DNA of 64,000 bases from Amoebophrya sp. A120 (GCA_905178155.1 CAJINV010000002.1:10648709-10712708), one strand, 5' to 3'; counted from the first letter of the stretch, positions 22,571-62,832 are shown. Notes: generated from the sequence alone by a model not told the origin. A program made the numbers and translations.

Positions 22571-25046
22571 TCACGAGTCGTCTACTTCCAGCGGTTCCGC
22601 AAACGGTACCTTCGTAATTTCGAGGTTATTGTATCCCCCGCAACACAATATCTGCTCCGGTAGCTCGTCATCATCCTTGCCCTCGACCAGCAGAGCGTAT
22701 TCGGTTTGCGCGGCAGGAAGCTTGCCCAACACCGTTGGTATTGCGGTGCGCATATCGCAAGGAAAAATCCCCCCTCCCCATATCAAAACGAAGTTTCTGA
22801 TGCTGGATTTGCGTACACAAATGAGATTTGTCTTGCTGGCGAGGACTGCAGGCCCATACTAAGCCTGAGTCTACAGGTTTTGGCCTACGCGCTTAGCATG
22901 ACAGACGTCGACGCTGTAGCTAAAACAGCATGACAAACCTCCTGTAGAATGCGGCGGAGCTTGGGGAGTTGCGTTCATGCAACACAGAGACGATTTGTGA
23001 CCTCAAATCAGCAACGCAAATTTTCGGCAACATACCTTTTCAATATGGGGAGGGGAAATTTTTCCATTTGATATCGCAACGCGTAGCCCCAGGTTCGCAC
23101 GTCGTAGTCTATCTCGAGTATCTATCAAATGTAAAAATGTCTGGGTCTGGAAGAATGCAACTTGTAATGCTGTCTGCGATTCTAAAAGTATCTGTGTTGC
23201 ATGAGCAGCAAAAGGAGTCAGTTCTTGGCACGCGGAGAGGCAATTTCTCATGCGTAATTAGCATCAAGAAGCTCTCAAAAAATCTGTGATGCTAGCACCA
23301 GCATCACAGACCTCACGGGTCATGCAAAATGTGCATGACAAGTCCCGACTCTTCCAGACCCAGACACTTTTGCAATCCATAGTATCCGGGGCGCATGCAC
23401 CCTGTTGAACCGCGCGCTGTAGGAAAGGAGCACGGGCTTACCTGATATTGCGTAGTTCAGGTCATACACTGCAGCTCAATTGCGCTTGATATGATTGAGC
23501 ATTTCAGGACGCATGAGTAGAGAGAAAACATTCGTGAAAATCTACTAAGAGAGTATAGTACGACGAAACTCTATGCATCCGCAACACCCTTAAAAAGCCT
23601 GCGTTTGAGTTTCAACATACCGTTATAGCTCTTGAACAGGTTTGGCACGTTCATTTCGGCCACGTTCCTGACTTGCACGATTTTTTTCAGCGCCAGCCCC
23701 TTTTTCTCGCTCCGGCCCTGATCCACGATTCGTTTCCACAGCCGCAGCTGTGGCGTCCAGGTGCCAGTGGAGAGGAGTCGGATGGCCTCATCGGATAGGA
23801 TGAAGTAGCCCACGAGGTTGAACCCCAAGTCGTCTACCGGATGAGAGCTGAACAGCCCGCCAGACTTGAACGGTACCTCCCCGTGCTCCACTAAGATTTC
23901 CGGGATGCCCCACTCCTCCTTGTAGCCCGCCTTGCGTATCCCAGAGAAAAAAGCTGGCAGGGCATATTTGTAATGCAAAAATAAATACACACAAAAATTT
24001 GTCATGGGTGGCCCCATAGCATGCTGTTTCGGATATGCAATAGAGATTTTTTTGTGTATTTATTTTTGCATTACAAATGTGTCCTGCCAGCTTTTTTCTG
24101 TGTGATATTGCGCGGAAACTTGCAGTCCCAGTTGCTCACGATCTCGTGTATCCTGCCGTTTTTCGCCTGCACCACGTCCCCGCCGATCAAGTCGTACAGG
24201 GCGGGCTTCGAAAAAATCTTCTCCCCGGACTGCTTATACCCGACGTTGCGTACCTTGAACCTCGTGGCCGAGGTCTCCATGTTCAGCTCTTTCGGCAACG
24301 AGTCAAACACGGAGAACCACGGGATTTCCGCTGCGAGATGTTGAGTAGAGATGAGGTGCGCAATGCGATTTTTCACCCGTAAAAAATGGAAGCCTTCTGG
24401 TGTGTGCTGCTGCAAGAAAAAAAAATCGCAGCCATGTAGACGTGTCGTGTTCTCGTGTAGTATACGGAAGACAGATTCTCGAAAGAAAAAGCTGATCTGT
24501 GGAAGTACCTCCTGGCGGAAAAGCCCTCCCGGGACTTTGCGAGCTCCAACTCATTTGCCTTGAGAGTGTCATGCTCAGCACGGGCCGGGCTTCGGAAAAG
24601 TCGGACCGCACCGTTCTCATATCGTCCTCCGTGTCTATGGATAGCAAAATTTTCTCGTTCTGGCTCACGGCGCTCACTTCCGTTAGCGAACCGGTCAATC
24701 CGCGGGCGGCTGTATTTGGGAACCGGGTTCTTCAAGTAGAAGTTTTGTATAGTATGTGCACCGATAAAGGACCGACACAACCAACTACGTACAAAAATCG
24801 GGTAACTTTATTACGTTGGATTGTGACTTTGTCTGTGCTTGTGAACAAATCTTGTTTAGAATAAATCAGCCGGCTGAAAGAATCTTAAAAACGTTTTGCA
24901 CGACTGGGTGGGTTTTCGCTGCTGGAGACCGGTCCGCTCGCATTCGTATCCTCCTGCATTTTGCTTTCCGCCTCTAGTGGTGCCTGCTGTTTCTTCGGCG
25001 ACTTAGAACCGCTCGCAGCGCCCCAGGGCCCGCAACACACGCCCAT
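22571..25046 (-). CDS. EDR2 C-terminal (DUF1336) domain protein with a probable acylated N-terminus; three inverted-repeat insertions plus GT-AG introns
   Basis: MGVCCG start; FKVRNVGYKQSGEKIFSKPALYDLIGGD; FPR|KAGYKEEW (D removed); SYNG|KPVLL (GT-AG intron 23442-23620); PRI|LEIDYDVRTWGYALR|TAIPTVLGKL...LLVEGKDDDELPEQIL (A5 and C removed). Confidence 0.8.
22753..23073. mobile_element. Family C inverted-repeat element (321 bp)
   Basis: TIR TATCGCAAGGAAAAATCCCCCCTCCCCATAT / ATATGGGGAGGGGAAATTTTTCCATTTGATA; TSD GCGCA (22748-22752) vs TCGCA (23074-23078), one mismatch. Confidence 0.9.
23123..23381. mobile_element. Family A element, copy A5 (259 bp)
   Basis: TATCAAATGTAAAAATGTCTGGGTCTGGAAGA ... 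TCTTCCAGACCCAGACACTTTTGCAATCCATA; TSD GTATC at 23118-23122 and 23382-23386. Confidence 0.95.
23937..24107. mobile_element. Family D inverted-repeat element (171 bp, ~60-bp TIRs)
   Basis: TATCCCAGAGAAAAAAGCTGGCAGGGCATATTTGTAATGCAAAAATAAATACAC... mirrored by ...GTGTATTTATTTTTGCATTACAAATGTGTCCTGCCAGCTTTTTTCTGTGTGATA; TSD TTGCG at 23932-23936 and 24108-24112. Confidence 0.93.
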
Positions 25047-25879: not shown

Positions 25880-28104
25880 CTACACATAACTCCCAAACAC
25901 CCCACAGTCGTACTTTTCCTTCCACGGATTGGGTGGCTCCGTTATGAACGCCCGGCGCTTTGTCAGGGCAACTTCGCCGGCAAACGAGGAGGATGGCATG
26001 TTGTCGAGTATCACGGGCCCGAAGTGTCCCTGGCGAAAAAAACGCAGGAACCAGCGCACGCCCGCCAGCAAATCGACCGACGCTCCCCGCTCCAGCATAT
26101 CCGGCTGCATGTGCTCTGCGAGATGTTTGACGCACTCGTCAATACTGTTCGTGGGCTGCTTACTCGGCAGATCCAGGGCTTTCACGTACTGGAACTGGCG
26201 CATCTTGTTCAACTTAAAGAGGCAGTAGTCCGCGAGGTACCACTCGCCAACTAAGTGGTCCGGCATGACACCAAGCAAGCACAGATTGGTTTGCTTTTCC
26301 AAATTTTCCACGTTCTTCAGAAGCATCATTCCGGGCGTGTCCACGCAGTGGATCATGGGCTTGCGCGAAATCAAAAACGTGGACTGCCCCTTGCAGTGGC
26401 GCGTGGTTTATCGATTGTAAAAATGTCTGGGTCTGGAAACTTGTGATGCTGTTTGTGCATGACACAGGAGGTCTAGCATGCAAGTCCTAGCAACACAGGT
26501 TTTGAGCAGGTTAGGCGATGCCGAATCCGCATGACAAGTTCCCTCTTTTGGTGGCAAGAAGTGAGCAACTTTTGCGGGGGTCCATGCATGACAGGTTTTT
26601 TTCTGTTCTCAAATACGCATTAGAAATTTACATGTTTCCAGACCCAGACATTTTTACATTTGATATGGTTCCGGGCAGCATGTTGGTCTTCGCCTCATTC
26701 ATCTATTACAGTGAAAAGGGCCTCCCACCCCAAGGTTGCAAAAATTTGTGATGCGAAGTTTCCAAATGAAAACTTTTTGTCATGCATGAAAGGAGTATGA
26801 AGCTTTCTGATGCATATTCTAGTCGTGGTTCGCATCGCTTACATGACAAGCACCGCTCTTGCTGGGATCTTTTGCAATACAAATTTTTGCTATTCACGAT
26901 CGGAAATCTGTGATGCTGATACATGCAAGAGGCCGAATGTTTCATTTGGAAAGGTTTGCAATACAAATACTTTCAAGTTCGGGGGTGGGGGCATTTTTCA
27001 TTGTAATATCATCTTCACGTCCTTCATGATATCCGGGTCCACCTTGTGACCGAGCGTGAACGCGTACTGCTTCAACCCGTTGATGATGGTCGATTTCCCG
27101 ACGTTCGGCAGCCCCACGACCATCATCCACAACCCCACCGTGTTGTGCTTCACGTCGCAGTTCTCCACGATGAACTCCCGGATCTTGCCGGTGTTGATTT
27201 TTTCCGACGCGGAGATCAGCAGGGCGGGCTTCCCCAGCTCCCGCATCACGCCCAGAATCCGCCGCGCGTCCTTCGCGGAAATCAGGTCGACCTTGTTGAA
27301 AATCGTCAGCTTTTTCAGGCGTTTGGGCTGCTGCACCTGCGACAGGCTGTTCCCATTGTACAGCGCGGACCCGATGTTGGACTGCGAGATGGTGCTGTCC
27401 TTAAAGCCTAACTCCTCCAACAATTCCCCCTGGCACGAGGAAAAGGGCGCGCGGGCGTCGCGGACCTCCAGGATCAAGTTGATCCCCCGCTCCACGCGCT
27501 TCTTCAAATCCACCTTCGCTTTGCTCATGTGCCCCAGCCACCAGTGCGGGTAAAAGTCGAAGGCAAACTTGTCCCGCGCAACAAACTCCGGGAACGGGTC
27601 GGGGAACGCGGAGGGACGGACAGCGGAGGACGTCGTGTTTGCCGCGTTTTGATGTGTAGTATTTTCTCGTCCTCGAGGATCAGTCGAGCTACTAGTACTC
27701 CCTCTCGACGAGGTGGACGACGATGCACTCGCATCGGCATCCCGGTGGTCCTGCGCACTTTGATCACGCTCAACGTCTCTGTGCTGTCGAGCCGAGAAGC
27801 CCTCCGCTGAGGTCGTAGTCGACTGCTGCTTTTCCCGCACCCTCGCGATCCAGTCCTCCTCTGGCATGTTGGGCTGGATCCGCTCGAACGGGTCATCCGC
27901 ATGATGTTCTTTCCTGGCATTGTTTTTTGTTCCGTTTCTATCTGCAGAGTGAGTGGAGGTGCTCGCCGCTGTTTTCAAAGTTCTGGATGGTGGCGTCAAG
28001 TGACACGTCGGATGGACAAAGGTCGCGCCGGCGCGACCTCTTTGGCACCAGTGATGCAATAGTAAATTGCTCCGGGCCCGAGCTTTTGCAGAGCTGCTGT
28101 GCAT
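25880..28104 (-). CDS. MTG1: Circularly permuted ribosome-assembly GTPase of the YlqF/RbgA/MTG1 family, probably mitochondrial
   Basis: WWLGHMSKA, LEVRDARAPFSS, G4 NKVD, G1 VVGLPNVGKSTIIN, G3 DTPG; G2 PGTTR appears only after removing B2 and A6 (VKM|NEAKTNMLPGT|TRHCKGQSTFLISRKPMIHCVDTPG); basic, acid-free N-terminus. Confidence 0.85.
26409..26665. mobile_element. Family A element, copy A6 (257 bp)
   Basis: TATCGATTGTAAAAATGTCTGGGTCTGGAAAC ... GTTTCCAGACCCAGACATTTTTACATTTGATA; TSD TGGTT at 26404-26408 and 26666-26670. Confidence 0.95.
26704..27008. mobile_element. Family B element, copy B2 (305 bp)
   Basis: TATTACAGTGAAAAGGGCCTCCCACCCC ... GGGGTGGGGGCATTTTTCATTGTAATA; TSD TCATC at 26699-26703 and 27009-27013; same orientation as B1. 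Confidence 0.95.
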
Positions 28105-29812: not shown

Positions 29813-30754
29813 CTAAACCAAAATGATGGTGCGCTGCGGCTTCGTTCGCTTAGCGCTTGCATCTGTGCTCCTTCTGTCGGCTGCTCTACTTTCAGTGTCT
29901 GAGTCTGCCTCATCGTCGGAAGCGAATATAGTGCCCTCCAAGCGAGCCACTTCAGCCCTGTCGTCTTCAGTCCGAACACGACCTGCGTCGTCGTGAACAG
30001 AAGACGTGTCAGCAGCTTGCGCCGACCCTATTGAATTTTCATCCTCTCCCGTGGACGCCAAAAAACTTGCAGGACCCACTGGCGCAGCGGCGGCCCCCGC
30101 GACTGGTTGGCCGGCCGGCGGTTGCTGGGCGACGCCATCTGTAGTGCCTGCTTGAGATTGCGCCCGGGTCTGAACGTCGTTTGCCGTAACGCGGCCGCTC
30201 GCCTGCGACGTTTGCCCTACAACTTGTTGGTTTGGTGCACCAAGAAGAAAACCGAGGCTGCCACCGCGCATTTGCGAGTCTTGCCGAGGCTTGATGAGAA
30301 AAAAGTACACGGCTAACACGATGCCGGTAATAATCACCGGCGAAAGAAGGCAGAGCCACAAATGCCCGCTCTCCGAGAGGCCTTGTACGAACCGTACGTT
30401 GCGTGGGTCCGTTCGCGCTCTCGGCGTTGGAGAATCGGTTCGTGGCGAATCGTTTTCCCCTCTCGGTTCCTCCGGTGGAGAATTATTGCCACCACTTCGC
30501 GGTGAATTTGTGGTCTTTTCTGGGCCCTCGTCTCGCTGGTAGAACTCCGAAAATTCATCAGGAGAATTGGCCACTACACCCTCGTTCTGCTCTTTCGACG
30601 ACTTCCGCTTCGCCCTGCTCTTCGCTTTCCGCGTGGCCCGCTTGGCCTTCGATGTTTGGCCATCGCTGGCGCTGGTATTGCTCGGGCTGCCGCTGCCCTT
30701 CGTCTTCGCGGAGGCCCGCTTAGGAGCGGATTGCTCGCCGGTAATATCACTCAT
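29813..30754 (-). CDS. Hypothetical single-pass membrane protein, 313 aa
   Basis: One hydrophobic helix (LWLCLLSPVIITGIVLAVYFFLI); ends RTIILV, similar to the neighbour's RTILV. Confidence 0.6.
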   Translation of the reverse strand: MSDITGEQSAPKRASAKTKGSGSPSNTSASDGQTSKAKRATRKAKSRAKRKSSKEQNEGVVANSPDEFSEFYQRDEGPEKTTNSPRSGGNNSPPEEPRGENDSPRTDSPTPRARTDPRNVRFVQGLSESGHLWLCLLSPVIITGIVLAVYFFLIKPRQDSQMRGGSLGFLLGAPNQQVVGQTSQASGRVTANDVQTRAQSQAGTTDGVAQQPPAGQPVAGAAAAPVGPASFLASTGEDENSIGSAQAADTSSVHDDAGRVRTEDDRAEVARLEGTIFASDDEADSDTESRAADRRSTDASAKRTKPQRTIILV

Positions 30755-49339: not shown

Positions 49340-52115
49340 TTAATACCTGCTCCCGTAGGTTGAGATTTCTACAGCACTGCTTCTGTGCATGCTTGCATCG
49401 CCATCCGCTACACGCTTCCATGCGTAAGTACAGCAGCTCTTTTCTGCAACTTGAATGCGAGGGGCGCAAAAGCATGTTAAGTGCACATGCCATACACAGT
49501 TGTGCGTGTCCAGAAACTCCTCCAGGCCGATGGTCTCCCCATTCGCGGTCTGGGAGTGGACCAAGATTCGGCTGTTTTCTCGGTGATCGACCACGATTTC
49601 CCGAAAACGGTGCTTGGTCGAAAAGCCGCCGTTGCTCCCCAGAAACTTCATCTTGAACAACACCACTCCGCACGCGAACCAGTCCACTTTCCGGACGTCG
49701 ATCTTTGTCTGCTCCCGCACCTTCTTCCAGTGCAGCTCCGGCGGTCGATACTCGCGGGTCCCGAGCGGAATGCGGTCCGACCGCACCACTGCCTCATCGC
49801 CGAAGGGCAAGCTGTATGCTACGCAAAAGTACATCGCAGTTTTGGTTCTGCATCGATTACGAGTTTTAGCGCTCAGCCTTTGTAGAGCACAGTAAATTCC
49901 AATTATTTTTCACCATGTTGATTGTCATGCATTTTGAAGTCCGTGTTTTTGTATGGGAAAAATCCTTTGGACTTGCGATACAACTTCTACCTCTGCCAAG
50001 CATAAGCTGATGCCAAAGTCGATGATCTTCAGCAAGAAGGGTGGTTTCGCCGACCGGGCGTGCGAGAATATCTTCCAGTCGTGCTCGTGTTGCTGCGCGC
50101 ACGTCGCCGCGCTCGGTACGAATTCGGAGTTGTTGTTCAGCTTGTAACTCGTTTCCGCGGTACAAGTAGTAGCGATATTGCTTTTACTCGCCGTCGTATG
50201 GCTGGCACTCGTCGATCGGGGTGGCTCAGAAAATTCGGTTTGTTGTTCCTTCGAAAACCGGATGAGCTCCTCAATCATACGATTCTTTTCCCAGTAAACC
50301 TGTGGCACCTCCGCAAGCATCAGGTTCTCGAGCTTCAGATCCAGATGCGCGCACTATCAAGAACGAGACTAGTACACTCGTGACCACCTATGTATCTCCG
50401 TCGCATATTTCCTGTCAAAAGTACTTATCATTTTGGACAGAAATTCTGCATGAGTTCTCCAACAGCAACAACATAATCACGACAAACGTTTTCAGCGACA
50501 TAAGTTCTTGCGTCTGTCTTTGCATGATCGAAAGTAGACAAGCGTTATTTTCATCTGATGAAGCATTCATAGTCACGAGCGTCCTCATCTCCCAGGATAC
50601 AACCTTCAACGCGTCGTGGAGGTGATGCACTCCCCGGACAAGCTGGTTGAACAGTTCGCGCACGATGCTTTCCCCTGGGCCGTTGTTGGTCACAAGACTG
50701 GACTCTGATTGCTTTCTTTTCAGTCCTCTCTTCTGCCGCGTTTCGTCTGCTTTCGCAACCATCCTGAAGTCACCACTACTTCCAGCAACGCCGGGCTTGC
50801 CAGAATTTTCGCTGCCGTGCAGTTGGCTCTGGAAGAAAAGTCTATCCAAGTCTCGCACCTTGCACCGCTGCAGGATCCCGTCGAAGAAGACACTCAGGTC
50901 AAACTTCAGCAAACCCAGCGCGAGGTAGCGCTGTGAGCGGTGATCGAAGCTTCCGTAAAACGTCACGACGTTGGGATGCGGCCGTTGCTGGATCTTGCGC
51001 AACCGTATCCCGGGGGAGGACAAAACCCGTCTGAGTCGTTGGACAAAGAAACTGATTCTAGCCTTAATGCGCATCTTTCGCTTTTTTTGCAGAACATAGT
51101 CGCGATATGGCAGCTTATTTGCAAGCAGCTAGGGAGACTGGCTGTGAGGATTACACTGTGGCTGCAAAGTCCATTCAGACCTTCCCATGCAGATATGTAC
51201 GCGAAGCAGTGCAAGTAGTTCGAGTTCCTTGCTCCAACGCCCCGATCTCTATTTCTTTGCTGTCGCTTGCATAAGGATCTCCAGGTTCCTCTGTTCTAGC
51301 CGCTCGCTTTGCTGGGCGCGCGCGTCTACGGCTTGGGAAATGCCGGGGCTACGACTAGGTTGCAAATTTCGCGCTCCGGGCCTTTCTGCGGCTGCCCCGG
51401 CTGTCTTGTTGTGGCGATTTTCGGTTTGCAGTGCGGAAAGGATTTGCAGAACCACTCCGAAGCACCCGTCCTCGCAACTTGCTCGTGCCGATGGCACTCC
51501 GGCGGCCGAGGCGACAACATTTTCGATTACGGCACCCGCGGGGGCCGCGCTTTGTTCTTGCGCTGGTGCGGCTCGTGCGTCGCCTGCGATCCGTGTCGAA
51601 CCGCGCTCAGCTTCTATGGGTGCATTCCTTGTGGGCGAGAGCGGCTTTTCTTCGCCGGTGATCGCTCGCTGCGTGACCTTGATCGCAACCTCTTCAAAGT
51701 ACTTGTAGAAGTTTTTGCTTTGTCCGAGTAAGCTCGCGGGGCAGCTGGCGCGACGCGAGGTTCTGGCGGTCGGGCAGGGGCTGTGGCATCGGTGTTCCGG
51801 TCGACTGCGTTCCCGATGAATTTTTCGGGGGGTAGAAGAGGGTAACTCATGCAGAGGACGGTGGAAGCTCGCGAGGTCTTGGACCCCGAGCGTCCGGGAG
51901 GTCGCGTCCGATCCGCGCCGCCGCGTTGCAAGCCGCCGAAAGCCCAACAACACCTCAGCAAAGCCTCCTTCGCCGAGCTTCTTCCGGGCCAAGTTGCAAA
52001 ACGGTGGTGTTGTTGACGTCAGCAGAAGCGCCTTCGAAACCCCCCGCGTCTCGGGGCAAATCTTCAAGGCTGCTTCGGCCTCCCGAGCGGGTGGGAGCCG
52101 AGAGAGGTGTGCCAT
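49340..52115 (-). CDS. Ser/Thr protein kinase with large inter-subdomain insertions (multi-exon)
   Basis: Ordered motifs LGEGGFAEV, VAIKV, HPNVVTFYGSF, LFNQLVRGVHHLH, AHLDLKLENLML, LKIIDFG, GTREYRPPE, KVDWFACGVVLFKM. Confidence 0.85.
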
Positions 52116-53833
52116 GTTCGCGCCCGGGTCTACCGTCCGCTCTCTCCGCGCATCCGTTTTTTGTGACCAAGCCACGAGCTGCTGCGCAAAGTGTAATTAG
52201 ATTCTGGCCGATTTGAAAAGATTGGCGCCAACGCGCCACGTGTACAATTGGCCTCGTCGAGGCAAAGATATCGCACCCTACGCACCGATATCTTGGAATC
52301 TTAACCTACGCTCGACCGGCGGCACGCGCTCGCTGTACTTTGCGGGCGTGATCGTTCGGGTAGCATGCCTCGGCTGCGCCATCCATTCTCTCTCGGAATA
52401 ACTGCGTCGAAAATGTCTCTCCGCTCATTCAGCTCCGAACGCTGATCCGCCGAGTGGCCTCGAACTAGGAATGATATCATTGCGGCTCCTTGTGCGGCTG
52501 GGGAGGGGGCACGTCGAGCGCCCACCACCCTCTCCAGTAGCAAAGCACGAAAACAACAAGGAACGAGTGCGGTTTATGCTGGTCGGGCGGCGCCGGTCTT
52601 TCCGGCGGGAAGGGGGGCGCGGTACCCACTCGATAGTCCGGGCTGACTGCAGGCTCTCGGAGTCCCATATCCCCGAGTCCTTTTCTACACCCTAGCAAAA
52701 CTGAGCGCGCCAGGCGCGGCGGCACCCGCCGGCATGGAGGCACTTAGATGCGGGCACCCGCGGTTCGCGAAACCCCGAAGCGGGGTGCATCGCGCCTTCC
52801 TTGGCGCCCCCGGTCTACTCGCGCGCATGGGGTCGGGTAGGCCTTTTTAGGATCGGGGAGATGTTCTGAAGCACTTTCTGCGGGACCGGCCGCGTGCGTC
52901 GTCGCGCGGGATATGCCGTCTCCTTGTGGCGACTCTCGTCTCCGCGCGCGGGAGGCACGCTGCGCGCCCACGCGTTCGCCTCGTGGCGACTTCGAGCGCC
53001 GCCCTGTCCGCCGGCCGGCGGGGGGAGCCTGTCCGGGGGAGGGGGGGGGAAGGGTTCTCCGCACCCCGCCCCCCTTGCGCGGTGTTCGCGGCGTTTTTGT
53101 GCCTTTTCGCGGTGGCTTCCGGTGGTTCTTCCGCACCTGGGGCTACCCTATTAGGCTACTTAATGAGCGGTGATGGACCGCGGTCCCATTCCCCGGCACA
53201 GTCTTGATCTTGGGACCCCGTTTACAGATTTTGCCACAGATTTTGCCAGATATTCTAATGGGGTCCGACGTCTGAAAGCTACCCAGTAGCTTCTCTTGCT
53301 AATAAACAAATTCTCTTCTGATCAAGTATGTTTTCCAAAGAAAACACACTTAGTGCACCACGTAGAAAGGGTTCTTTTCTCAAAAAAGGAAGAACAACCT
53401 AGCAAAGTTCTCCTAGAAAGTGCGTACAGTGTGACTTTAACCACAAGGATTGCTTGTGAATTATCAGGGGTGAAGCGGAAGACTGAAACGAATCGCCTGG
53501 AAATGAACGCGAAAACGCCAAAATCGGAATGCCCTTCTGAAACGAATAACTTTTTTCAGAAATTCGAAACGTCGGACACCATGAAGTCCGACGCTTCGCA
53601 TTTCTGAAAAAAGTTATCCGTTTCGGCCGGGCTTCCGCGGGGCGAGTCGATTTGCAGTGCAGAATCGCACTGCAAATGGACTCGCAGCGACGCGTCTTGT
53701 CGGAGATGCAAATTCGCCCAGGAGGGCAGATCTGCGTCGCGTTTTCACCTTTTTTTAGTATTGGTTCAAATGGGGCCAATACTTTTCCGCAAGTACTGCC
53801 GGAGACAGTGGCCCCTCTGAGTGCCGGATTGCG

Positions 53834-53903
53834 AGTTGTTTCCCCAAAAGAACCAGTGGCTCTGGCAGTTGCCAGAGCCACTGGTTCTTTTGGGGAAACA
53901 ACT
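53834..53903. repeat. Perfect hairpin, 34-bp arms with a 2-nt loop
   Basis: AGTTGTTTCCCCAAAAGAACCAGTGGCTCTGGCA-GT-TGCCAGAGCCACTGGTTCTTTTGGGGAAACAACT. Confidence 0.95.
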
Positions 53904-54035
53904 GCCAGTCCTTTTAGGTGCCGGATCGAACAAGGCATTTCCGAGTAAAACTCGGAAACGCCTTCGATCCGGAACCTAAAGGAGCCAGGTAATACCACGC
54001 GCCCCCCAAGTGCAAACCTAGATCCCGCGCGAACA

Positions 54036-54900
54036 TGCGCCACAAATCAGCCCGAGAGCCGATTTGCACTGCAAGTTCGCACGGGACCGCCGCCCGCCGT
54101 CTGGACTTGCGTCGCAAATTTGCAGTGCTGCATTGCAAATTTGTAATGCAGCACTGCAGTTTTGCAATGCGGGGCCGCAGGTCGGGGCTTGCATTGCAAA
54201 TTTGCCATGCTGCTTTGCAAATTTGTGATGCAGCATTGCAAATTAGTACTGATTTGAAGCAGATCAATACTCCTCCGGCAGTGCAACCGTTTCCGGCTGC
54301 GTGGCCAGTTGCCCTCCCTGCTCATGCAACACAAATCAGCCCGAGAGCCGATTTGTACTGCAAGTTCGCACGGGATCGCCGCCCCCCGTCTGGACTTGAA
54401 TTGCAAATTTGCAATGCTGCATTGCAAATTTGAACTGAAGCATTGCAAGTTTGCAATACGGGGTCGCAGGTCTGGCCTTGCATTGCAAATTTGCCACGCT
54501 GCTTTGCTAATTTGTAAAGCAGTGCCGCAGATTAGTATTGATTTAAAGTAAATCAATACTCCTTCGGCAGTGCAACCGTTTCCGGCTGCTTGGCCAGTTG
54601 CCCTCCCTGCTCATGCAACACAAATCAGCCCGAGAGCCGATTTGTACTGCAAGTTCGCACGGGATCGCCACCCGCCGTCTGGGCTTGCATTGCAAATTTG
54701 CGATGCTGCGTTGCAAATTTGTACTGCAGCATTGCAAGTTTGCGACGCGGGGGCGCAGGTCTGGCCTTGCATTGCAAATTTGCCATGCTGCTTTGCAAAT
54801 TTGTAACGCAGCGCTGCAGATTAGTAATGATTTAAAGTAAATCAATACTCATCCGACAGGGCAACAGTTTCCGACTGCGTGACCAGTTGGCCTCCCTGCT
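54036..54900. repeat. Tandem repeat, three copies of a 289-bp unit rich in TTGCAAATTTG sub-repeats
   Basis: CACAAATCAGCCCGAGAGCCGATTTG at 54041, 54330 and 54619; one 27-bp palindromic site per unit. Confidence 0.92.
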
Positions 54901-54905
54901 GTGTT

Positions 54906-56831
54906 TGCGGCTAGAAATGCACTGCAGGGGCGCCCTCCGCTGGAGTTCCAGCCGAAGGCGTCCCCTTAGTGCAATTCTAGCTGGAGGGGCGCTGAGGATG
55001 CCTGCCCAATGCCTTTCCCGCTGGACGCGCAGACGGAAACGCCGGCGAAAAGCGTGCTAGTATTGACTTGCACTAAGTCAATACTGGAACACGCTTGACA
55101 TGTGGAAGGGCACGCCGGGCCTCTGGGCTTTCCAAGCAGTGCTGGCGGTGCCAACGCGATGGGGCCCCTGTCCCAATGGGTGCCACCAAGCAAGGAGGCG
55201 CTGCGCCCCCCGCCCCGCCAGGAGGCGAGGTCTGGCTACGTCGCCGCACTTGGGGATCTTGTGGCCCGGTGTCACTCCCTTGGGGCCCCTGTTCCAATGT
55301 TTCCCCCCTCCCCGAGCGGGCGCGCCAGGAGTGCCCTGCCGTGGGGGAGCCTTCATTGGGACAGGGGCCCCGCTGCGGTGAAACCGCCTTTCCGAGTGGC
55401 TTCAGGGTTTCCCAATTGGTGCAGGCGATCCGCAATGGGTGCTCCGAGGCTGGGGCCCGCTGCGTTCCCCCGCCCGCCCGCTGCCACATTGGGACAGGGG
55501 CCCCGTGGGATTGGCACCAAGGCGGCGAAGCAGGCGCGCACGCAGAACGAGAGGAACGCAAGCCAAAGTATTAAAAAAGCGCAGAGCAGTACTAAGGGCC
55601 ACAAGGAGCGCAGGCTCAAGGCTTATCGGCGCGGGCCGTGTCTCGCGCACGTCGGGCGCCTAGAAGGCCAGGCGCCGGCAGGGAGTAAACCCGCTGAAGC
55701 GTCTTGAGGTCGCGCGCCGGCAAGGGCGGCACATCAACGCCGCACGCCCACCGTGGTTCTGCGCCCCTTTTCCCATTCATTCGCCAAGGGGGGCGGAGGC
55801 GCCGCGAGTATTCCCTTCGCCTAGTTCAATACTTTTTCGCGCTTTGCCCTTTTTTCCTCCTTGCGCTCCGTTCTTGAGCCTGGCGAAGGGTCTGGCAAAC
55901 CTCGGGGCCGCTTCAAGATTCTGCAGCAGAGAAGCGGCCAAAAAAGTCCAGCCACGAAAAGTATTGAAATGCCGCAAACCAATACTACAAAACAGCGGGG
56001 CGCTAAAAAGCGGAAAGCACACAAACCCCAAAGGGCGCAAACAGCGTCGCCCGCCCGCTGCGAAGGATGGCGGCCTGCCTCCCTCCCTCATTCTGACTCT
56101 TTTCCCTTAAAAGCAGCCAAGCGGAAGGGCTTTCCGGGTATTGGGTTCCGTTATTCCAATACCCTTCCGGCCCTTTCCGGCTTTCTTTCCTTTTCGCCCT
56201 TCAGCCTGAAGGAAAATCTGGCGGATCCCGTGGCCGTTGACAAGTTGAAGAGCGAGAGCCCGCTAGCCGGGCGCTATGCGCGCCTCCGGGATGAAAAAAT
56301 CGCGTCTGCTGACGCAGGCACGCAAAGATGCAAAAAATGGAAGCCGTAGCGCAAAAAAACAGAGCGCGCCACGGAGGTGAAGAAATCACCTCCGTGCCGT
56401 GCTGTTTCGGGCGCTTCAATTGCGCAACGTGGACCCGGTGCCACCCGGTGCCATCCGGGTGGCACCGCCAACATAGCGACGTCTTTCGCTTCTGGGTGTC
56501 ACTGGGTTTTAAAATAAAATAAGAAGTGTGTATATATACTTCTTTTTTTTTTATCGCCGAGTGGCACCGGGCTCAGTCTGAATGCAGTACACCATGCGGA
56601 TTCGGATTGATTTTCGGGCGGTGCCAAGTTATGGCACCGCCTGCAACACAATCCGAACCCGCGCAAGTATTGAAAGAACTCAAGCCAGTAGTATAGGTCT
56701 AAGCTATTTCAATACTAGCCAGCGCGTTTTTACCTTGCGACACCATCGCGCCCCCAGCTAGAATCTCACTGAGAGGGCGTCCTCAGCTGGAAATCCAGCT
56801 GAGGACGCCTCGCCAGCGCACTTCTGGCCGC
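54906..56831. mobile_element. Putative ~1.9-kb non-autonomous foldback-like element bounded by diverged inverted repeats
   Basis: 54906-54992 aligns to the reverse complement of ~56748-56831; each arm is itself a hairpin and is followed inward by a GCTAGTATTGA site; no TSD or transposase found. Confidence 0.45.
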
Positions 56832-57079
56832 ACTTACTCCATGCCGCCCGGATTTGTGGCGCGCGCGCCACAAATCTGCGCTGCGCGGCAAAGATTTGTG
56901 CTGCGAAGGAAGCAGGCCACCAAGAGCGCAAAATTGCAGCCCAAGCGCAACCGTTGCGCTTGAGCTGCAATTTTGCGAGGTCTTCTGCGGCAGAAGACCG
57001 GTTTTCTGGCGCGCACTTTTTTCAAAAAAAAAAAAACTGTCCAGGTTATCCGTTTCTGTTACCCGTTTCACCCTGTGTC

Positions 57080-57800
57080 GCGGTTTTTATAATACTCAGC
57101 ATTTTCTCTATATGCAATAGACAATCATATGTAAAATCACGGAAAATTACCAGAATTCCTAACGGTCACGCTTTAGGAAAATTCTCGAAGATCTTTCTCA
57201 TAGTATAATTTGCAAGGTTTTTGCAAAGTTTACGCAAGGAATTGAGAATAATAAAGATGCAAGGGCATTCAGTATGCGTGAAGTTTTCAGTTTCCTGAAA
57301 ATTCTTTGAGGGTCAAAATTTTTGAAATTTTTAAGATTTTTTGAATGTAAGAAAAATATATAAAAATATCTGTCGGAGCGTACGTATTAGCATAGTATGA
57401 CTATATAGATCATAACCATACTACACCTTTTGGAATTTGTATAAGAATTTCTAGAAATTTTGGAGATTATAAGTTTTTCAAAATTTTTGATTTGTGAAAT
57501 TTTGCAACGATTTTATGCATTATTGCGAGCATTAAATTAAATTATTGGGAGCATTCAATAATAATCATGGAGACTTCAATTATATAATGTTGATCTAGTA
57601 AGTCTGGAAATTTTTAGGGATATGTGCACACTTTGGATTTTTTTCGGATTTTGAACCATACTGTTTTTTTTTCATTTTCATTGGGTTGGAGCATCTGAGA
57701 GCTTGTGATTTGGGTGCAAATAGCTCCCATCTTACCACAGTTCGTAACTATGCTCCTTTTCTTTCGCAGTATTATCATAAAATTTTACTGTTAGCCTCTA
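57080..57800. other. AT-rich low-complexity island in the strand-switch region
   Basis: Abrupt shift to A/T-run-rich sequence (e.g. AAAATTTTTTGAAATTTTTAAGATTTTTTG) between GC-rich blocks; no credible ORF. Confidence 0.6.
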
Positions 57801-59912
57801 CCACCACCCCAGACCCCCCGGATCCCCCCCCCCTCCCCCTAGATCCATTACTTGACCCAGGGGTGTTCAGCCTGTGAGCCTACTTAGCTGCATCCTATTG
57901 TCCTTCTTTGCAGCGGCCTCCTGCGCGGCTTTCCAGTTGTTCTCTAGTGCCAGCGCCTTCGATTTCCGCGGAAAGGCCTGCGGTTCTTTATTCGCGTGCG
58001 AATCCGCCTCGACCGACCGCGGGCACCGCCTGCGCCCGAAAGGAGGGCGCACTTTGTGGCGCCCGGCCGGCGGAAGAGGCGCGAAAAGCGCGCCGCGGTC
58101 CGCAGAGGCCGGAGCTCCGGGGGCCGCATTCCCCCCTAAGTCCCCCCCCCTTTCCGCACGTAGACCCGCACCCTTTCCCAAACTGCACGCGAAAAGAGGG
58201 CCCTTTGACGCCCGCATGCTTTGGGGAAACCACCACAGGTATGTCTCCGCCCGCAGAAGAGCGGTTTAGTTGTGGCCTGCTAGGCTGTACGTCTTACCGT
58301 CCTTCTCCGTTGGGACGATTTTTTCGCGGGTTGGAAACCTACACGGCGGGTCAGAGGAGGCATCCATGCGGCCGGCCATCATCCATCGGATTGAGCTTGG
58401 GATCATTGTGGCGGCGACACTTCTACCTTCCCTTCTGCAAGTACACGGTTGATGGGCTTTTCAGAGCGCCAGTGAAGGCGCCGACTGGGATTGTTTGGTA
58501 TCTTATCCTGTAAACTGCTGTGGAGCAGGGACTGGACTTTTTGGCGCAGTATTCGGAGCCTCGTGCGGGCACGCCGATTGTTTCGGCGTTGCGATTTGCG
58601 AAGTCCGCGCGTTCCATACGCCTGGTTTTGCTCCTCGCGATCAGCGACGCCGCCTGTGGGTCAATCTATCACGTGTCTTGTCCGAGCCTGGGAGCCGATT
58701 CCCCTGAAATCTACGAGAGAGCGGGCGGCATTGCACCCGAAGGTGACTGTTCGTTCACGCTGGAATTATGGGAGCGGTGGAGCAAAAGCATGGAAGGTGA
58801 TGGTGGCGATCCCGCCGGGACATGCTGAGGATTCACCACCGCTTTCGCGTACTAGGGTCTCTGCATTGCTGTCCCGTGCCCGACGGACTTCACTATTCCA
58901 GGCATCATTTTGTCAGCCACAGGAAAAATAAGTATGGCACGTCTTTGCGGTATTGTCTGCATCGAGAGTGTCTAGGCACTCCCGGTGGTGAGTCGTCGAG
59001 TTGCACAATTTAGATTTTGCAAAGCCCAGTAGTCTAGTAAGGCCGACTGGCGTTTAAGTACTTACTTGAAGCTGGCGCAAATGCCTCCGATGATCGACCA
59101 GAAAAATTATTTAGAGCCGTAGTATTTTTCGACGCTGCTGCGTGCGTCTGCCTTGTGCACTGAAATAGGCAGGGTGCTGGTGTTCTTGGAGGCAAGAAGA
59201 TGCAGTAAGCGGTATTGTAGAAGCTGACACATTTCGACCGATAGTTGCCTGCTGTGCCGCATCTGCGACCCGGTGCGTGGTACGTCTTTTCTCCGTGGGT
59301 TGTACTTGTTCACCGGCAAATAAATTCTGTGATGCTGTGCGGCTCTTCCTAGTAATTCTTGTGAGAACGAAGATGATTAAGTAAATTTTCTGCCGTGCTT
59401 CGGTGCCGTAGTTGAGTTTCTGAGTGCGTGAGGTAAAAGAAACTCCGCGAATATTGCCAAGTTTTAAATGTAGAACGACCAGTAAGCCAAGAAAGAATAC
59501 TAGCGCCCTGGTACTATTACAGAGCCGATCCCACCTACCTTTGTATTGCGAAAGAGTCAAGCCATCCGTACAAAGAAGCCACATGGTCGAATGAGTGGTT
59601 GCGTTACCGATTTGCGTTCGCCTACGCGAGCAGCCGAACTCCGGCGCATGCGAACGATCGATCGGCGGGACGAGCAAGCGCAAACCCAGACGGGGGTGTG
59701 AAAGCTCAGGCGGCACCCGTCCCAGGAGGTAGGAACAGGACTTTCAAGACAGAAAGCAGACACAAACTGCGCTGCGGATCGGTTCTCGACGACTTCTGAT
59801 AAGCAGTGAGTACTCGTCCGCTAGAAGATCAACATCTACATCTGACTGCGAAGCAATCCCGGCAGCTTCACCGCTTCCTACTAGTTTTCGGATTCGAAGG
59901 TAAAGGACTGTC

Positions 59913-61788
59913 ATGTCGGAAGAGATCGACCGTCATATTCTGCGGAAGTACGACGTGGTACAGAAGCTGGGCAAGGGCGCCTACGGGATCGTATGGAAGG
60001 CCATCGACAAAAAATCGCGCGACGTGGTAGCGCTGAAAAAGTGCTACGACGCCTTCCAGAATGCCACCGACGCGCAACGAACGTTCCGCGAAATCATGTT
60101 CCTACAAGGTGAGTTGAGTTTCCTCAGAAGCTGCAGTGCTTCGGCCGTGCAACTTTGTTTCTACACTTGTCCCTTTTTCTATAATTACTTGGCTTTCAGC
60201 ACGCTTAATAGTTTCTTGGTTCGAAGTGAGCACGCGTGAACAAAAGTAACTAAAGCTCCACTTTGCAAAACCAGATTTGAGCGGACACGAAAACATCGTG
60301 CACCTGATAAATGTGCTGAAGGCGGACAATGACCGCGATATCTACATCGTAACCGACTACATGGAATCCGACCTCCACGCGGTGATAAGGGCGAACATAC
60401 TCGAGGACATACACAAGCAATACATCATGTAAGAAAGTTTTCTAGTACTACCCGTGCCTGCCAGCGCTTCTGCGGGGTTATGCAGCTTTTTTGCGCTGTC
60501 TGCTTCAATGTTTTGATCCTACAAAATTTTTACAGAAAAAAATTCCAAACGAACTACAGCTACCAGATGTTGAGGTGTTTGAAGTACATGCACACGGGTA
60601 AAATGCTGCACCGGGATATCAAGCCTTCAAACATTCTCTTGAATTCGGATTGCCTTGTGAAGGTAAGAAGCGGTATTTTCAGCAATGTAAGGAAATTGAA
60701 ATTTTTTCAGACGTGGAAGATCATTTTGAAAAAGACCGTTGGTTTCTGCGGCTGCATTTTCAGCAACAAACGATACTTTCCGTGGAAAAACCACTTCCAA
60801 CTTCTGCAGGTCTGCGACTTTGGCCTCGCGCGAACCGCCACGCAAATGTCGCAGGAGAAGGGAGACCCGGCACCGGTTTTGACCGACTACGTCGCGACCC
60901 GATGGTACCGCGCGCCAGAAATTTTGCTAGGCAGCACGTCCTACACCTACGGCGTCGACATATGGGCGGTTGGGTGCATATTAGGCGAGCTTTTGAATGG
61001 AAAGCCAATATTTCCCGGCAGCTCAACCATGAATCAGCTCGATCGGATCTTAGAGGTAATTGTGCAAACTACCCATGCGTTGAAAATTGTAAAAGTGATT
61101 TGCAGCAGCTTCACCGCAAAACTACGCTCAGTGCATGTTTTGATTCTGAAGATCATTCTGCGGTCGGCATCCAAAATGCCAATACTGATGTGCACGCAAG
61201 TGAAGTGCGCGCAAAAAATGATTTACCTGCCTGCCGTTGTCGACGCAAAAGAAAAAAACGTACACAGGTAACCGGGCGACCGTCTGCAGAGGATGTCGCA
61301 GCGTTGCAAAGCCCCTTCGCAGAAACCATGCTGGAAAGTTTGCCGAGCAACCGGCACCGAACACTGGATAACAACCGGTTTAAGGAAATGTTTCCCTCCG
61401 CGTCGAATGAAGCTCTCAGCTTTCTCCGCGAGTGTTTGAAATTCAATCCGCAAAGACGGATCTCTGCGGAGAAGAGCCTGCACCACGCGTATACTCTCGT
61501 AGCATGATGAAAGAGTCTTCTACTGTTTCTTCATGGTTGCTTGATTGTTCTTTTTGCATCGACATCACTTGTTTGCACTTACCTTTTTCATCAATGATGC
61601 ACTACTCCCACAGCTATGTCGCCCAGTTTCACAACCCGGCAGACGAGCCGTCCTGCCCAAAGCCAATCTCAATCCCGCTGGACGATAACACGAAACTTAG
61701 TGTGGCAGACTACCGGGACAAGCTGTACGCAGAGGTGGTGAAGAGAAGAAAAGACGACCGGCGACCTAGCAGCAGTTATGACGGGTAA
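59913..61788 (+). CDS. ERK7: ERK7/MAPK15-type MAP kinase with GT-AG introns; 3' end may extend further
   Basis: MSEEIDRHILRKYDVVQKLGKGAYGIVWKA, DAFQNATDAQRTFREI, HRDIKPSN, DFGLAR, LTDYVATRWYRAPE (TDY loop); introns 60109-60274, 60429-60559, 60663-60809, ~61056-61267, ~61489-61613. Confidence 0.93.
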
Positions 61789-62832
61789 AAGAAAGACTCC
61801 TAAAAATATATATGCCGAGTTGATTTTTCTTTGTCGTGTGCGGCAACTACGTTTTAGTCTTCATAGCGAGAACCTGTGCCGACTGGCCAGGCAGCGCGAG
61901 ACACGATGTATGCATCTGTGTAATCGGTTGTCGAAAAAAACCAAAACAGCAACGGCGGACAGTCGGGCTCGCAGGCACGACCCGGTAGCCAGGCTGCATC
62001 GGGACAGCGAAAATCCGCCGGCGGAAATCCCGGGGACTGGGAAAAAGTCGAGTCTCGATCGCAGCCCGGGCGATTTTACTACGTCAATAAGCGGACGGGT
62101 GCCAAGCAATGGGAAAAACCAGAAGGCGTGGCGTGAGGAGTCGATCTGGCCCGGCTTTATTTTTTTTTCTTTTGAGACAGCACTTTGTTACAATTTTACT
62201 TAAAAATTACTTATTGCGCATTGATGTCAATTTATTACGACGCGCTGCTGTCTTTGCAGCAGCGACGGCAGCAGCCCTCTGCCAAAGGATGTAGAGGCTG
62301 CTGCGCCTCCATCGCAGCTTCTCTTCGCTGTGTTGGATTATCTACCTTTTGTTAAGACATCGTCATTCGAGGAATTTGCTGTGATTTTTTCACAGCAGCT
62401 CGAGTTATGTTTATTGTTTGGTCAGCATATTGGTCCGAGACGAAAAGTGCCTTGTATGTCATTGTGGATTGCATTCTTTGGTGATTAGATTCTTTGTATG
62501 TAGACTTTTGTAACAAAGGTTCTGCTCGACTAGCAGAAAAGCCATTCAACGGCACCTGACGCACCAGCGCGTGAAGGTTTTTTTTGCGAAGATGTCGAAC
62601 GTGTTTTGAGTTCGACAGCCCTAGATTTATTCTGCGTTCGCGTTCGGTGTTGTGTCGACTCGTGCGAGAGGGAGAGTAGTTGCGAATCGCACATTTCATC
62701 TTCAAGCGAGAGAAGCGACTCGCTGAAAGGAGTATTCTAAATGAGCAGGACTTCCTCGGAAATATCCATCTCGCAGTTCTTGTTTAAAAGTGTTTGCTTT
62801 TCGCCCCCTTAGAACACGAAACCGACGAAATT

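What the first reader, a model, noticed from the sequence alone, without database searches (positions are those of the whole stretch)
53757..56716. Eleven fixed-length 27-bp palindromic sites punctuate a non-coding modular region at the strand switch
Seen: examples are AGTATTGACTT-GCACT-AAGTCAATACT (55059), AGTATTGATTT-AAAGT-AAATCAATACT (54534), AGTATTGAAAT-GCCGC-AAACCAATACT (55960), GGTATTGGGTT-CCGTT-ATTCCAATACC (56137) and AGTATTGGTTC-AAATG-GGGCCAATACT (53757). Outer arms and length are conserved while centres vary; three copies derive from the tandem repeat. Sites are mostly 150-530 bp apart and separate modules that each contain their own inverted repeats. Known: inverted arms around a variable spacer is the layout of tyrosine-recombinase core sites and dimeric DNA-binding sites. 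Inference: a cassette-like recombination array, or a protein-loading platform such as a bidirectional promoter, origin or centromere. Each site reads TAT...ATA internally, like a minimal version of the introner ends. I do not recognise this as a described system.
Basis: partly seen in the sequence, partly recalled or inferred. Interest (0 to 1): 0.75.

Follow-up and report, generated by a model that had tools for sequence, protein, structure and literature searches.

The report
Hairpin-packed transposon with fixed 27-bp sites
The eleven 27-base mirror-image sites are real and lie inside a 3.6-kb gene-less, hairpin-packed repeat with transposon-type ends that occurs in many copies in a parasitic dinoflagellate; it is likely a passenger transposon, and the sites would be docking points for a DNA-binding protein rather than cut-and-swap points.

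Summary
The sites are real: 10 of 11 window-wide matches (GTATT-N15-AATAC, at most 1 mismatch) lie in 53757-56716, only at length 27; an eleventh has 2 mismatches. Its ends are inverted repeats (28 of 37 alike) close to the maize Ac/Ds end, and one contig joins right end, one T, left end, the commonest intact hAT circle joint. The host is Amoebophrya (neighbouring MAPK = named A120 protein). The sites keep a sequence consensus, not base pairing; their centres all differ; module losses and the 289-bp triplication break away from them. That argues against a recombinase cassette array and for binding sites of a two-fold symmetric protein. Against plain hAT membership: no 8-bp target duplication here, no transposase found, sites spread through the interior. 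Verdict: likely a non-autonomous hAT-like transposon of an unusual modular build, inserted in a divergent strand switch. A centromere-like role (copies about as many as large scaffolds) is not excluded and is cheap to test.

The parts
53465..57075 (.). Whole multicopy non-coding element, 3611 bp
   Evidence: Depth 528-1270 in bins wholly inside vs 44.5 on unique flanks (run X1); unique contigs stop at 53493 and resume at 57047, one word length inside the ends
53465..53501 (+). Left terminal inverted repeat, begins CAGGGGTGAAG
   Evidence: 28 of 37 alike to the right end; 9 of 11 alike to the Ac end given in PMC3260210
57040..57075 (-). Right terminal inverted repeat, begins CAGGGTGAAA on the minus strand
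   Evidence: Best inverted match to the left end among 63,960 36-mers of the window (score 44, next unrelated 32); other copies leave the window sequence behind 57075 (table 7)
53485..53624 (.). Three GAAACGRAT end-proximal repeats (53485, 53539, 53616), two of them in the arms of hairpin 53525-53637; a fourth at 57048; exact AAACGG at 53618, 57050, 57063
53757..53783 (.). 27-bp site 1
54245..54271 (.). 27-bp site 2 (tandem unit 1)
   Evidence: a variant copy changes 4 centre positions and no arm position
54534..54560 (.). 27-bp site 3 (tandem unit 2)
54823..54849 (.). 27-bp site 4 (tandem unit 3)
   Evidence: most contig depth reads the consensus letter at 54827
55059..55085 (.). 27-bp site 5
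55567..55593 (.). 27-bp site 6
55807..55833 (.). 27-bp site 7
55960..55986 (.). 27-bp site 8
56137..56163 (.). 27-bp site 9 (G...C outer pair)
56666..56692 (.). 27-bp site 10, degenerate, abuts site 11
56690..56716 (.). 27-bp site 11
54034..54900 (.). Three 289-bp tandem units, each with one site and 6-8 copies of an introner-like 10-bp motif
53525..53980 (.). Four long hairpins (53525-53637, 53642-53685, 53826-53911, 53913-53980)
54906..54994 (.). Hairpin module with an inverted, 78% alike partner at 56744-56832
55144..55518 (.). GC-rich module with four TTGGGACAGGGGCCCC-type repeats in both orientations
56363..56999 (.). Run of further hairpins (56363-56403, 56436-56467, 56495-56568, 56596-56662, 56776-56809, 56843-56884, 56927-56977, 56979-56999)
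57101..57600 (.). Single-copy AT-rich tract outside the element, lowest G+C of the window (28%)
53036..53050 (-). Single-copy C-run on the leftward-transcribed strand; the same 15-mer stands at 57825-57839 on the rightward-transcribed strand
59913..62133 (+). Spliced MAP kinase gene, first recognisable gene of the plus-strand block
   Evidence: 424 of 425 residues of P0004, named Amoebophrya sp. A120, lie in exact 8-mers of the window frames
49340..51074 (-). Kinase-like exons, nearest recognisable gene of the minus-strand block
   Evidence: weak Pkinase hits, E 5e-4 and 1e-2

Best explanation
The eleven sites lie inside a 3611-bp multicopy, non-coding element with Ac/Ds-like inverted ends that is likely a non-autonomous hAT-type cut-and-paste transposon, and the sites likely are double-stranded binding sites for a two-fold symmetric protein. 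Shown: bounded multicopy unit, inverted ends, end-proximal GAAACGRAT/AAACGG repeats, one right end-T-left end joint, fixed 27-bp geometry with a sequence consensus, variable module content among copies. Inferred: a transposase encoded elsewhere (not found) would bind the ends, cut the element out, now and then leave an end-joined circle, and reinsert it; the 27-bp sites would hold further DNA-binding domains of that transposase (BED-type, as on hAT subterminal repeats) or a host protein along the interior; modules would be gained and lost by ordinary unequal recombination and template switching at hairpins, not by exchange at the sites; the missing target duplication would come from a later rearrangement or exchange between copies, or from a mosaic in the assembly.
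For: Multicopy and sharply bounded: per-position depth 7-18 times the flank in X1 (16 positions, median 15) and 6-22 times in X2 (18 positions, median 11); single contigs at 8.2, 4.7 and 2.8 times mark three subtypes. Ends: 28 of 37 alike, best inverted match in the window falls exactly at 57075; left end 9 of 11 and right end 10 of 11 (one gap) alike to the Ac end C/TAGGGATGAAA; AAACGG is the Ac transposase hexamer (PMC3260210) and occurs 1 time in the left and 2 times in the right 200 bp. Two X2 contigs leave the window sequence behind 57075 into other DNA; one reads T then the left end (table 7); a single T was the commonest joint among intact hobo circles, 5 of 15 (PMC2803484). Sites: consensus without extra pairing, 4 of 10 folded sites have z above -1.3, so they are not hairpins. 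Unrelated 450-515-bp elements with CAGG-type ends and 8-bp target duplications (L038, L040, L049, L059) carry 2-4 AGTATTG-N13-CAATACT sites each. hAT BED domains bind short repeats, cooperatively on a quasi-palindrome (bioRxiv 2022.09.16.508221). hAT-type elements are reported in other dinoflagellates (PMC12130899 supplement 8).
Against: No 8-bp target duplication at this copy (flanks TGAATTAT and TGTCGCGG; best near-match 4 bp with 1 mismatch). No transposase in the element and the genome paper found putative transposases only in A25, not A120 (PMC7789003 section 16). hAT binding repeats are described within about 200 bp of the ends; these sites start 292 bp in and run through the whole interior, and the true end-proximal repeats are a different motif. 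The analogue elements were pulled out by a pattern that demanded 27 bp, show 15- and 21-bp spacings too, share only the outer 7 bp and have no similarity beyond the site. The end-to-end joint is one contig with 10 loose letters in one run. Summed contig depth is not a copy number by the tool's own caution, and X1-X3 are one sample that may be the window's source. Fewer than the three exact AAACGG that Ac needs at the 5' end.
Confidence: 0.6

Rival explanations
1. A chromosome-level functional element (centromere, segregation or replication locus), perhaps tamed from a hAT transposon: one copy per chromosome at a divergent strand switch, the 27-bp sites bound by a dedicated protein as CENP-B binds its box (CENP-B comparison recalled).
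For: Rough copy number 10-15 is of the order of the large scaffolds of A120 (L50 5, L90 18, 50 in all; PMC7789003). The copy sits in a divergent switch next to the most AT-rich tract of the window. No target duplication and no transposase. Trypanosoma cruzi candidate centromeres lie near strand switches and hold transposable elements (PMC13508446). Arms of the sites stay constant while centres drift: of 8 listed differences inside sites, 7 are in positions 8-20 and the 1 in an arm restores the consensus (listed rows only).
Against: A120 has 516 co-oriented blocks, so a switch is not rare and 10-15 copies cannot mark them all. Intact inverted ends, several young subtypes (577 bp with 2 differences at 8 times depth) and an end-to-end joint fit mobility. 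Only one copy could be placed.
Confidence: 0.15
2. A tyrosine-recombinase cassette array: each 27-bp site is a core site (10-7-10) and the modules between them are excised, inserted or shuffled by site-specific recombination.
For: Fixed length, inverted arms, conserved T and A at the borders of a 7-bp centre (14 of 18 half-sites). Copies differ in module content and carry other palindromic modules (tables 5 and 7). An end-joined form exists.
Against: Of 55 site pairs only the two tandem twins share a centre; most such recombinases need matching centres (recalled; integron and conjugative-transposon integrases are exceptions). 7 of 8 joints have both ends 12-230 bp off any site, the eighth ends on a site's last base, none in a centre; the triplication ends 211 and 51 bp off. 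No recombinase in the ORFs scanned.
Confidence: 0.07
3. A non-autonomous element of another class, such as a Helentron-type rolling-circle element or a TIR family that leaves no duplication.
For: No target duplication, a T on both sides of this copy and a single T in the joint; Helentrons insert in TT, leave no duplication, may carry tandem repeats (PMC4067079); heavy single-strand folding.
Against: The inverted repeats are terminal and symmetric, not subterminal with a 3' hairpin 38-60 bp in; two contigs of other copies continue behind 57075 with a letter other than T.
Confidence: 0.08
4. The element is the working bidirectional promoter of the strand switch.
For: It lies between two divergent gene blocks and is dense in repeated motifs.
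Against: The switch has its own single-copy symmetric features outside the element (same C-run on the transcribed strand of both sides, AT-rich core), and there are far more switches than copies. PMC7789003 found no sign of block-wide co-regulation.
Confidence: 0.05
5. The family is real but its placement here, or this copy's interior, is an assembly mosaic of several copies; the missing duplication and the position at the switch are then artefacts.
For: No listed contig spans the element; at 7 of 40 listed positions no X1 contig shows the window's letter (table 3). The published A120 scaffolds are short-read scaffolds with closed gaps.
Against: Those scaffolds were cut at chimeric joints found with long reads; both unique flanks run up to the element's two ends at equal depth, and their promoter-like C-runs mirror each other. 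Contigs drop rare variants.
Confidence: 0.05

Closest known systems
Ac/Ds non-autonomous hAT elements of maize (Ds2, Ds-l4; PMC3260210, passages read)
   Same: End sequence (9 of 11 and 10 of 11 alike to C/TAGGGATGAAA), AAACGG near the ends, no transposase, filler DNA between the ends, kb size
   Different: No 8-bp duplication at this copy; imperfect 37-bp end repeat; filler is an ordered series of hairpin modules separated by eleven fixed 27-bp symmetric sites, not captured gene or retrotransposon DNA; no autonomous partner known
hobo/Hermes hAT episomes (PMC2803484, passages and tables read)
   Same: Right end and left end joined across a single T or A
   Different: Here one contig in one run; circle versus chromosomal tandem not told apart
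Unnamed hAT-like miniature elements in metagenome loci L038, L040, L049, L059
   Same: CAGG-type ends; repeated AGTATTG-N13-CAATACT
   Different: 450-515 bp, 8-bp duplications present, sites only near the ends and built from CAATAC hexamers with 15-, 21- and 27-bp spacings; no similarity beyond the site
Amoebophrya A120 introner elements (PMC7789003; PMC12130899)
   Same: Same genome; non-autonomous, inverted ends; 289-bp module carries a motif like the introners' internal repeat
   Different: Introners are 257-321 bp here, begin TAT-N7-AAAA, have 4-5-bp direct repeats and sit in genes; this element is 3.6 kb, intergenic, with other ends
Trypanosomatid centromeres at strand-switch regions (PMC13508446, passages read)
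   Same: Transposon-derived DNA at a strand switch in a genome of co-oriented gene blocks
   Different: Those are degenerate retroelements without a shared fixed site; centromere function is untested here
Tyrosine-recombinase core sites and baculovirus hr or EBV oriP palindrome arrays (recalled, no call)
   Same: Fixed-length imperfect palindromes in an array
   Different: Centres unmatched and breakpoints off the sites; no recombinase or viral gene near

Membership tests
hAT superfamily, non-autonomous | Short terminal inverted repeats of the C/TAGGG type | tested here: met
   reference end from PMC3260210
hAT superfamily, non-autonomous | 8-bp target site duplication | tested here: not met
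   This copy: TGAATTAT vs TGTCGCGG, offsets -2..+2 tried. Other copies' flanks could not be paired
hAT superfamily, non-autonomous | Short transposase-binding repeats within about 200 bp of both ends | tested here: inconclusive
   4 GAAACGRAT, exact AAACGG 1 left and 2 right; binding untested
hAT superfamily, non-autonomous | Dispersed multiple copies ending at the terminal repeats | tested here: met
   depth step and other flanks behind 57075; left flanks of other copies not seen
hAT superfamily, non-autonomous | Cognate DDE transposase with BED and dimerisation domains in the genome | not testable with these tools
   No genome held; none in the element; PMC7789003 reports none for A120
hAT superfamily, non-autonomous | End-joined circles with 0 to few extra bases | tested here: inconclusive
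   one contig, right end-T-left end vs PMC2803484
Tyrosine-recombinase cassette array | Inverted arms round a 6-8-bp centre at fixed length (recalled) | tested here: met
   10-7-10 reading possible
Tyrosine-recombinase cassette array | Matching centres between partner sites (recalled) | tested here: not met
   1 of 55 pairs, the tandem twins
Tyrosine-recombinase cassette array | Rearrangement breakpoints inside the sites | tested here: not met
   0 of 8 joints and 0 of 2 tandem ends in a centre; contigs give only part of the joints
Tyrosine-recombinase cassette array | Cognate recombinase | not testable with these tools
   none among 89 window ORFs scanned; no genome held
Helentron-type non-autonomous element | Insertion in TT without duplication | tested here: inconclusive
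   met at this copy, not at two other right flanks
Helentron-type non-autonomous element | Subterminal, asymmetric inverted repeats with a 3' hairpin | tested here: not met
   repeats are terminal on both sides vs PMC4067079
A120-type introner | TAT-N7-AAA ends, 3-5-bp direct repeat, inside a gene | tested here: not met
   neither the element ends nor the 22 half-sites fit
Centromere | One per chromosome; bound by kinetochore proteins | not testable with these tools
   no genome held; no centromere map for Amoebophrya found

The most novel reading that the evidence does not exclude
The element is the centromere or segregation locus of Amoebophrya chromosomes: a tamed hAT transposon present once per chromosome at a divergent strand switch, whose eleven 27-bp boxes load a dedicated dimeric protein and whose hairpin modules collect binding motifs of other mobile elements, introners included. 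It would be the first sequence-defined centromere candidate in a dinoflagellate.
Probability: 0.15. Interest if true: 0.88.

Novelty: new variant of a known kind. Interest (0 to 1): 0.52.

Why it matters
If it is a hAT-like passenger, a cut-and-paste transposase has recently been active in a genome reported to lack one and full of introners whose mobilising enzyme is unknown; the element's ends, its 27-bp sites and the motif its 289-bp module shares with introner interiors give concrete baits to find that protein. An interior built of hairpin modules punctuated by fixed symmetric sites was not found described for hAT elements in the ten searches made. If the copies instead fall one per chromosome, the open question of what a dinoflagellate centromere is becomes testable with one BLAST of a public assembly.

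Tried and rejected
No whole genome was held, so genome-wide counts, strand-switch enrichment and paired flanks could not be done. RNA runs X6-X8 laid 0 reads even on the MAP kinase gene: no test of expression; no RNA holder listed. Rfam: 39 matches at E up to 1, none at a gathering score, nearly all microRNA hairpin models. IMG/VR: two-site pattern gave 36 loci, the multi-site ones short coding repeats of collagen type by my reading, no similarity to the element; end pattern 0; full consensus 22 single hits. JGI metagenomes: 23 loci, no relative; 13 of the 23 were read by eye. Plasmids: no match. Selection on hairpin folding: of 40 listed differences 19 fall in the 15 hairpins folded: 9 unpaired, 2 one compensatory pair (53852/53885), 1 kept as G-T, 7 break pairs: inconclusive. 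Alignment of 9 introners to 10 modules showed no homology beyond a 14-17-bp word. Splice-motif counts did not separate strands and were dropped as an orientation test. X5 (another study, estuary) holds six listed 150-190-bp pieces of the element at depth 2-3; too thin to say more than presence. Four look-ups of earlier findings gave nothing on this locus.
Full report

2. Host and setting. The window is eukaryotic with spliced genes. The MAP kinase at 59913-62133 encodes 424 of 425 residues of a protein named Amoebophrya sp. A120, on a 13.16-Mb contig, and nine 257-321-bp introners with TAT-N7-AAAA ends lie in the first 27 kb, the end type published for A120 (PMC7789003). Genes with Pfam hits run leftwards on the left and rightwards on the right: a divergent switch. 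A120 has 516 co-oriented blocks. The switch has single-copy features of its own: the only three C or G runs of 8 or more in the window, the same 15-mer on the transcribed strand of both sides, and the most AT-rich 500 bp of the window.

3. The real unit. Laying public contigs on 50000-62000 shows depth 44.5 on long unique contigs that stop at 53493 and resume at 57047, and 528-1270 in the bins between (run X1; X2 the same pattern). That places the edges of a repeat at about 53464 and 57076. Exactly there stand CAGGGGTGAAG at 53465 and its inverted partner ending at 57075, 28 of 37 alike; the right end is the best inverted match to the left end among all 63,960 36-mers of the window. Depth at 16 (X1) and 18 (X2) listed positions that I took from outside the inner triplication is 7-18 and 6-22 times the flank (medians 15 and 11); single contigs at 8.2, 4.7 and 2.8 times mark three subtypes. 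The tool warns that summed depth is no copy number, and X1-X3 are one sample, possibly the window's source, so 'about 10-15 copies' is rough. Other copies leave the window sequence behind 57075 into other DNA (2 contigs), carry other palindromic modules, and lack some modules of this copy; one X2 contig reads right end, T, left end (tables 5 and 7; 24 of 61 loose ends shown).

4. What the ends resemble. The Ac/Ds end is C/TAGGGATGAAA with AAACGG repeats in the terminal 200 bp and an 8-bp target duplication (PMC3260210). The left end matches 9 of 11, the right end 10 of 11 with one gap; AAACGG occurs once in the left and twice in the right 200 bp, within a longer GAAACGRAT repeat found four times. 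Among intact hobo circles a single T between the ends was the commonest form, 5 of 15 (PMC2803484). But this copy has no target duplication, so a defining hAT feature was tested and not met: I call it hAT-like, not a hAT member. No transposase lies in it, and the genome paper reports putative transposases only for A25.

5. What the sites are. Over 18 half-sites of 9 non-redundant sites the first 7 positions carry 1.4-2 bits each, position 11 is T in 14, and positions 8, 12 and 13 avoid T. Pairing between the two halves at positions 8-13 is no more than the columns give (22 of 54, p = 0.52); arms never extend more than 1 bp beyond the 27; 4 of 10 folded sites are no more stable than shuffles. 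So a sequence and a distance are conserved, as for a protein with two-fold symmetry on duplex DNA, not a hairpin. Of 8 listed differences between copies that fall in sites, 7 are in the middle and the one in an arm restores the consensus (only the best-supported rows are listed, and some reflect tandem twins). For a cassette system the centres should match and breakpoints should fall in them: only the tandem twins share a centre (1 of 55 pairs), 7 of 8 joints have both ends 12-230 bp from any site, the eighth ends on a site's last base, and the triplication begins and ends 211 and 51 bp from sites. A metagenome scan for two sites about 289 bp apart found no relative among 23 loci, but 7 loci are small repeats with several AGTATTG-N13-CAATACT sites, and 4 of these 7 have CAGG-type ends with 8-bp duplications (3 exact, 1 with two mismatches). 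This shows the same outer motif and distance in hAT-like miniature elements elsewhere, with the caveats that my pattern demanded 27 bp and that those elements also show 15- and 21-bp spacings. BED domains of the Hermes transposase bind short repeats, cooperatively on a quasi-palindrome (bioRxiv 2022.09.16.508221).

6. A link to introners. The sites are not miniature introner ends. However, a 10-bp matrix built from the nine introner interiors alone (5-8 hits each) hits the three 289-bp units 7, 6 and 8 times, against at most 2 in 193 background tiles, at most 3 in 200 di- and trinucleotide shuffles of each unit, and background density in the rest of the element. I noticed the likeness by eye before building the matrix, and at a stricter threshold the units drop to 1-3 hits, so this is a lead. 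It could mean a shared binding protein or a shared chromatin-positioning signal (the units have a 21-bp period).

7. Mechanism. Most likely (0.6): a non-autonomous hAT-like element moved by a transposase encoded elsewhere, inserted in the AT-rich core of a native divergent switch; its 27-bp sites would load further DNA-binding domains along the interior, and modules would turn over by unequal recombination. Shown are the unit, ends, copy variation and site geometry; inferred are the transposase, mobility, the binding protein and the cause of the missing duplication. Rivals: centromere-like locus (0.15), other element class (0.08), recombinase cassette array (0.07), promoter (0.05), assembly mosaic (0.05).

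8. Novelty. I found no description of this element or of a hAT-like element with such an interior in ten full-text searches; most subscription papers and repeat databases are not covered. Seen of each paper: PMC7789003 abstract, passages, sections 5, 14, 16, 23 and a term search of its one text supplement, whose figures on repeats (Fig. S4) I could not see; PMC12130899 passages and supplement searches (12 of 14 files; 60 of 63 hAT places in file 8, where one A120 family has hAT terminus hits but is classed otherwise); PMC3260210, PMC2803484, PMC4751559, PMC13508446, PMC4067079 and bioRxiv 2022.09.16.508221 passages only; all others search listings. Recombinase spacer rules, CENP-B, baculovirus hr and oriP are recalled and come from no call.

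9. Verdict. Observation confirmed; interpretation partly supported. New variant of a known kind; interest 0.52, since the likeliest reading is a transposon passenger, but its build is odd, the enzyme is missing from a genome where that is an open question, and the centromere alternative is one genome search away.

Noticed in passing
window 1051-1313, 1362-1670, 12324-12584, 12651-12913, 17498-17759, 22753-23073, 23123-23381, 26409-26665, 26704-27008: Nine A120-type introners; each carries 5-8 copies of an internal motif (about YYTGT(C/G)ATGC) that is also dense in the 289-bp units of the element; candidate binding site of the unknown mobilising protein or a chromatin signal.
   Followed up: partly
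window 53036-53050, 57824-57839, 58142-58150: The only long C/G runs of the window flank the switch in mirror image, C on the transcribed strand: candidate native promoter element of divergent switches.
   Followed up: no
window 57101-57600: Single-copy tract of 28% G+C with strong G-over-C skew, the most AT-rich of the window, abutting the element's right end.
   Followed up: no
window 23937-24107: 62-bp inverted arms, 92% complementary, 47 bp apart; holds the one weak 27-bp match outside the element.
   Followed up: no
L038 1893-2407, L040 1330-1828, L049 1989-2437, L059 2958-3409: Miniature hAT-like elements with 8-bp duplications in metagenome contigs, with repeated AGTATTG...CAATACT sites near both ends.
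   Followed up: partly
L041 2737-3060, L042 742-1066, L046 717-1036, L050 852-1177: A different family of paired 27-bp palindromes about 295 bp apart, some facing each other with longer shared arms, one in a tandem repeat; not identified.
   Followed up: no
window 60827-61227: Slight depth rise and loose ends at 60880-60916 in X1, X2 and X5, probably paralogous MAP kinase exons from other genes or organisms.
   Followed up: no
window 30440-30475: Second-best inverted match to the left end (score 32 against 44); no depth data there; probably chance.
   Followed up: partly
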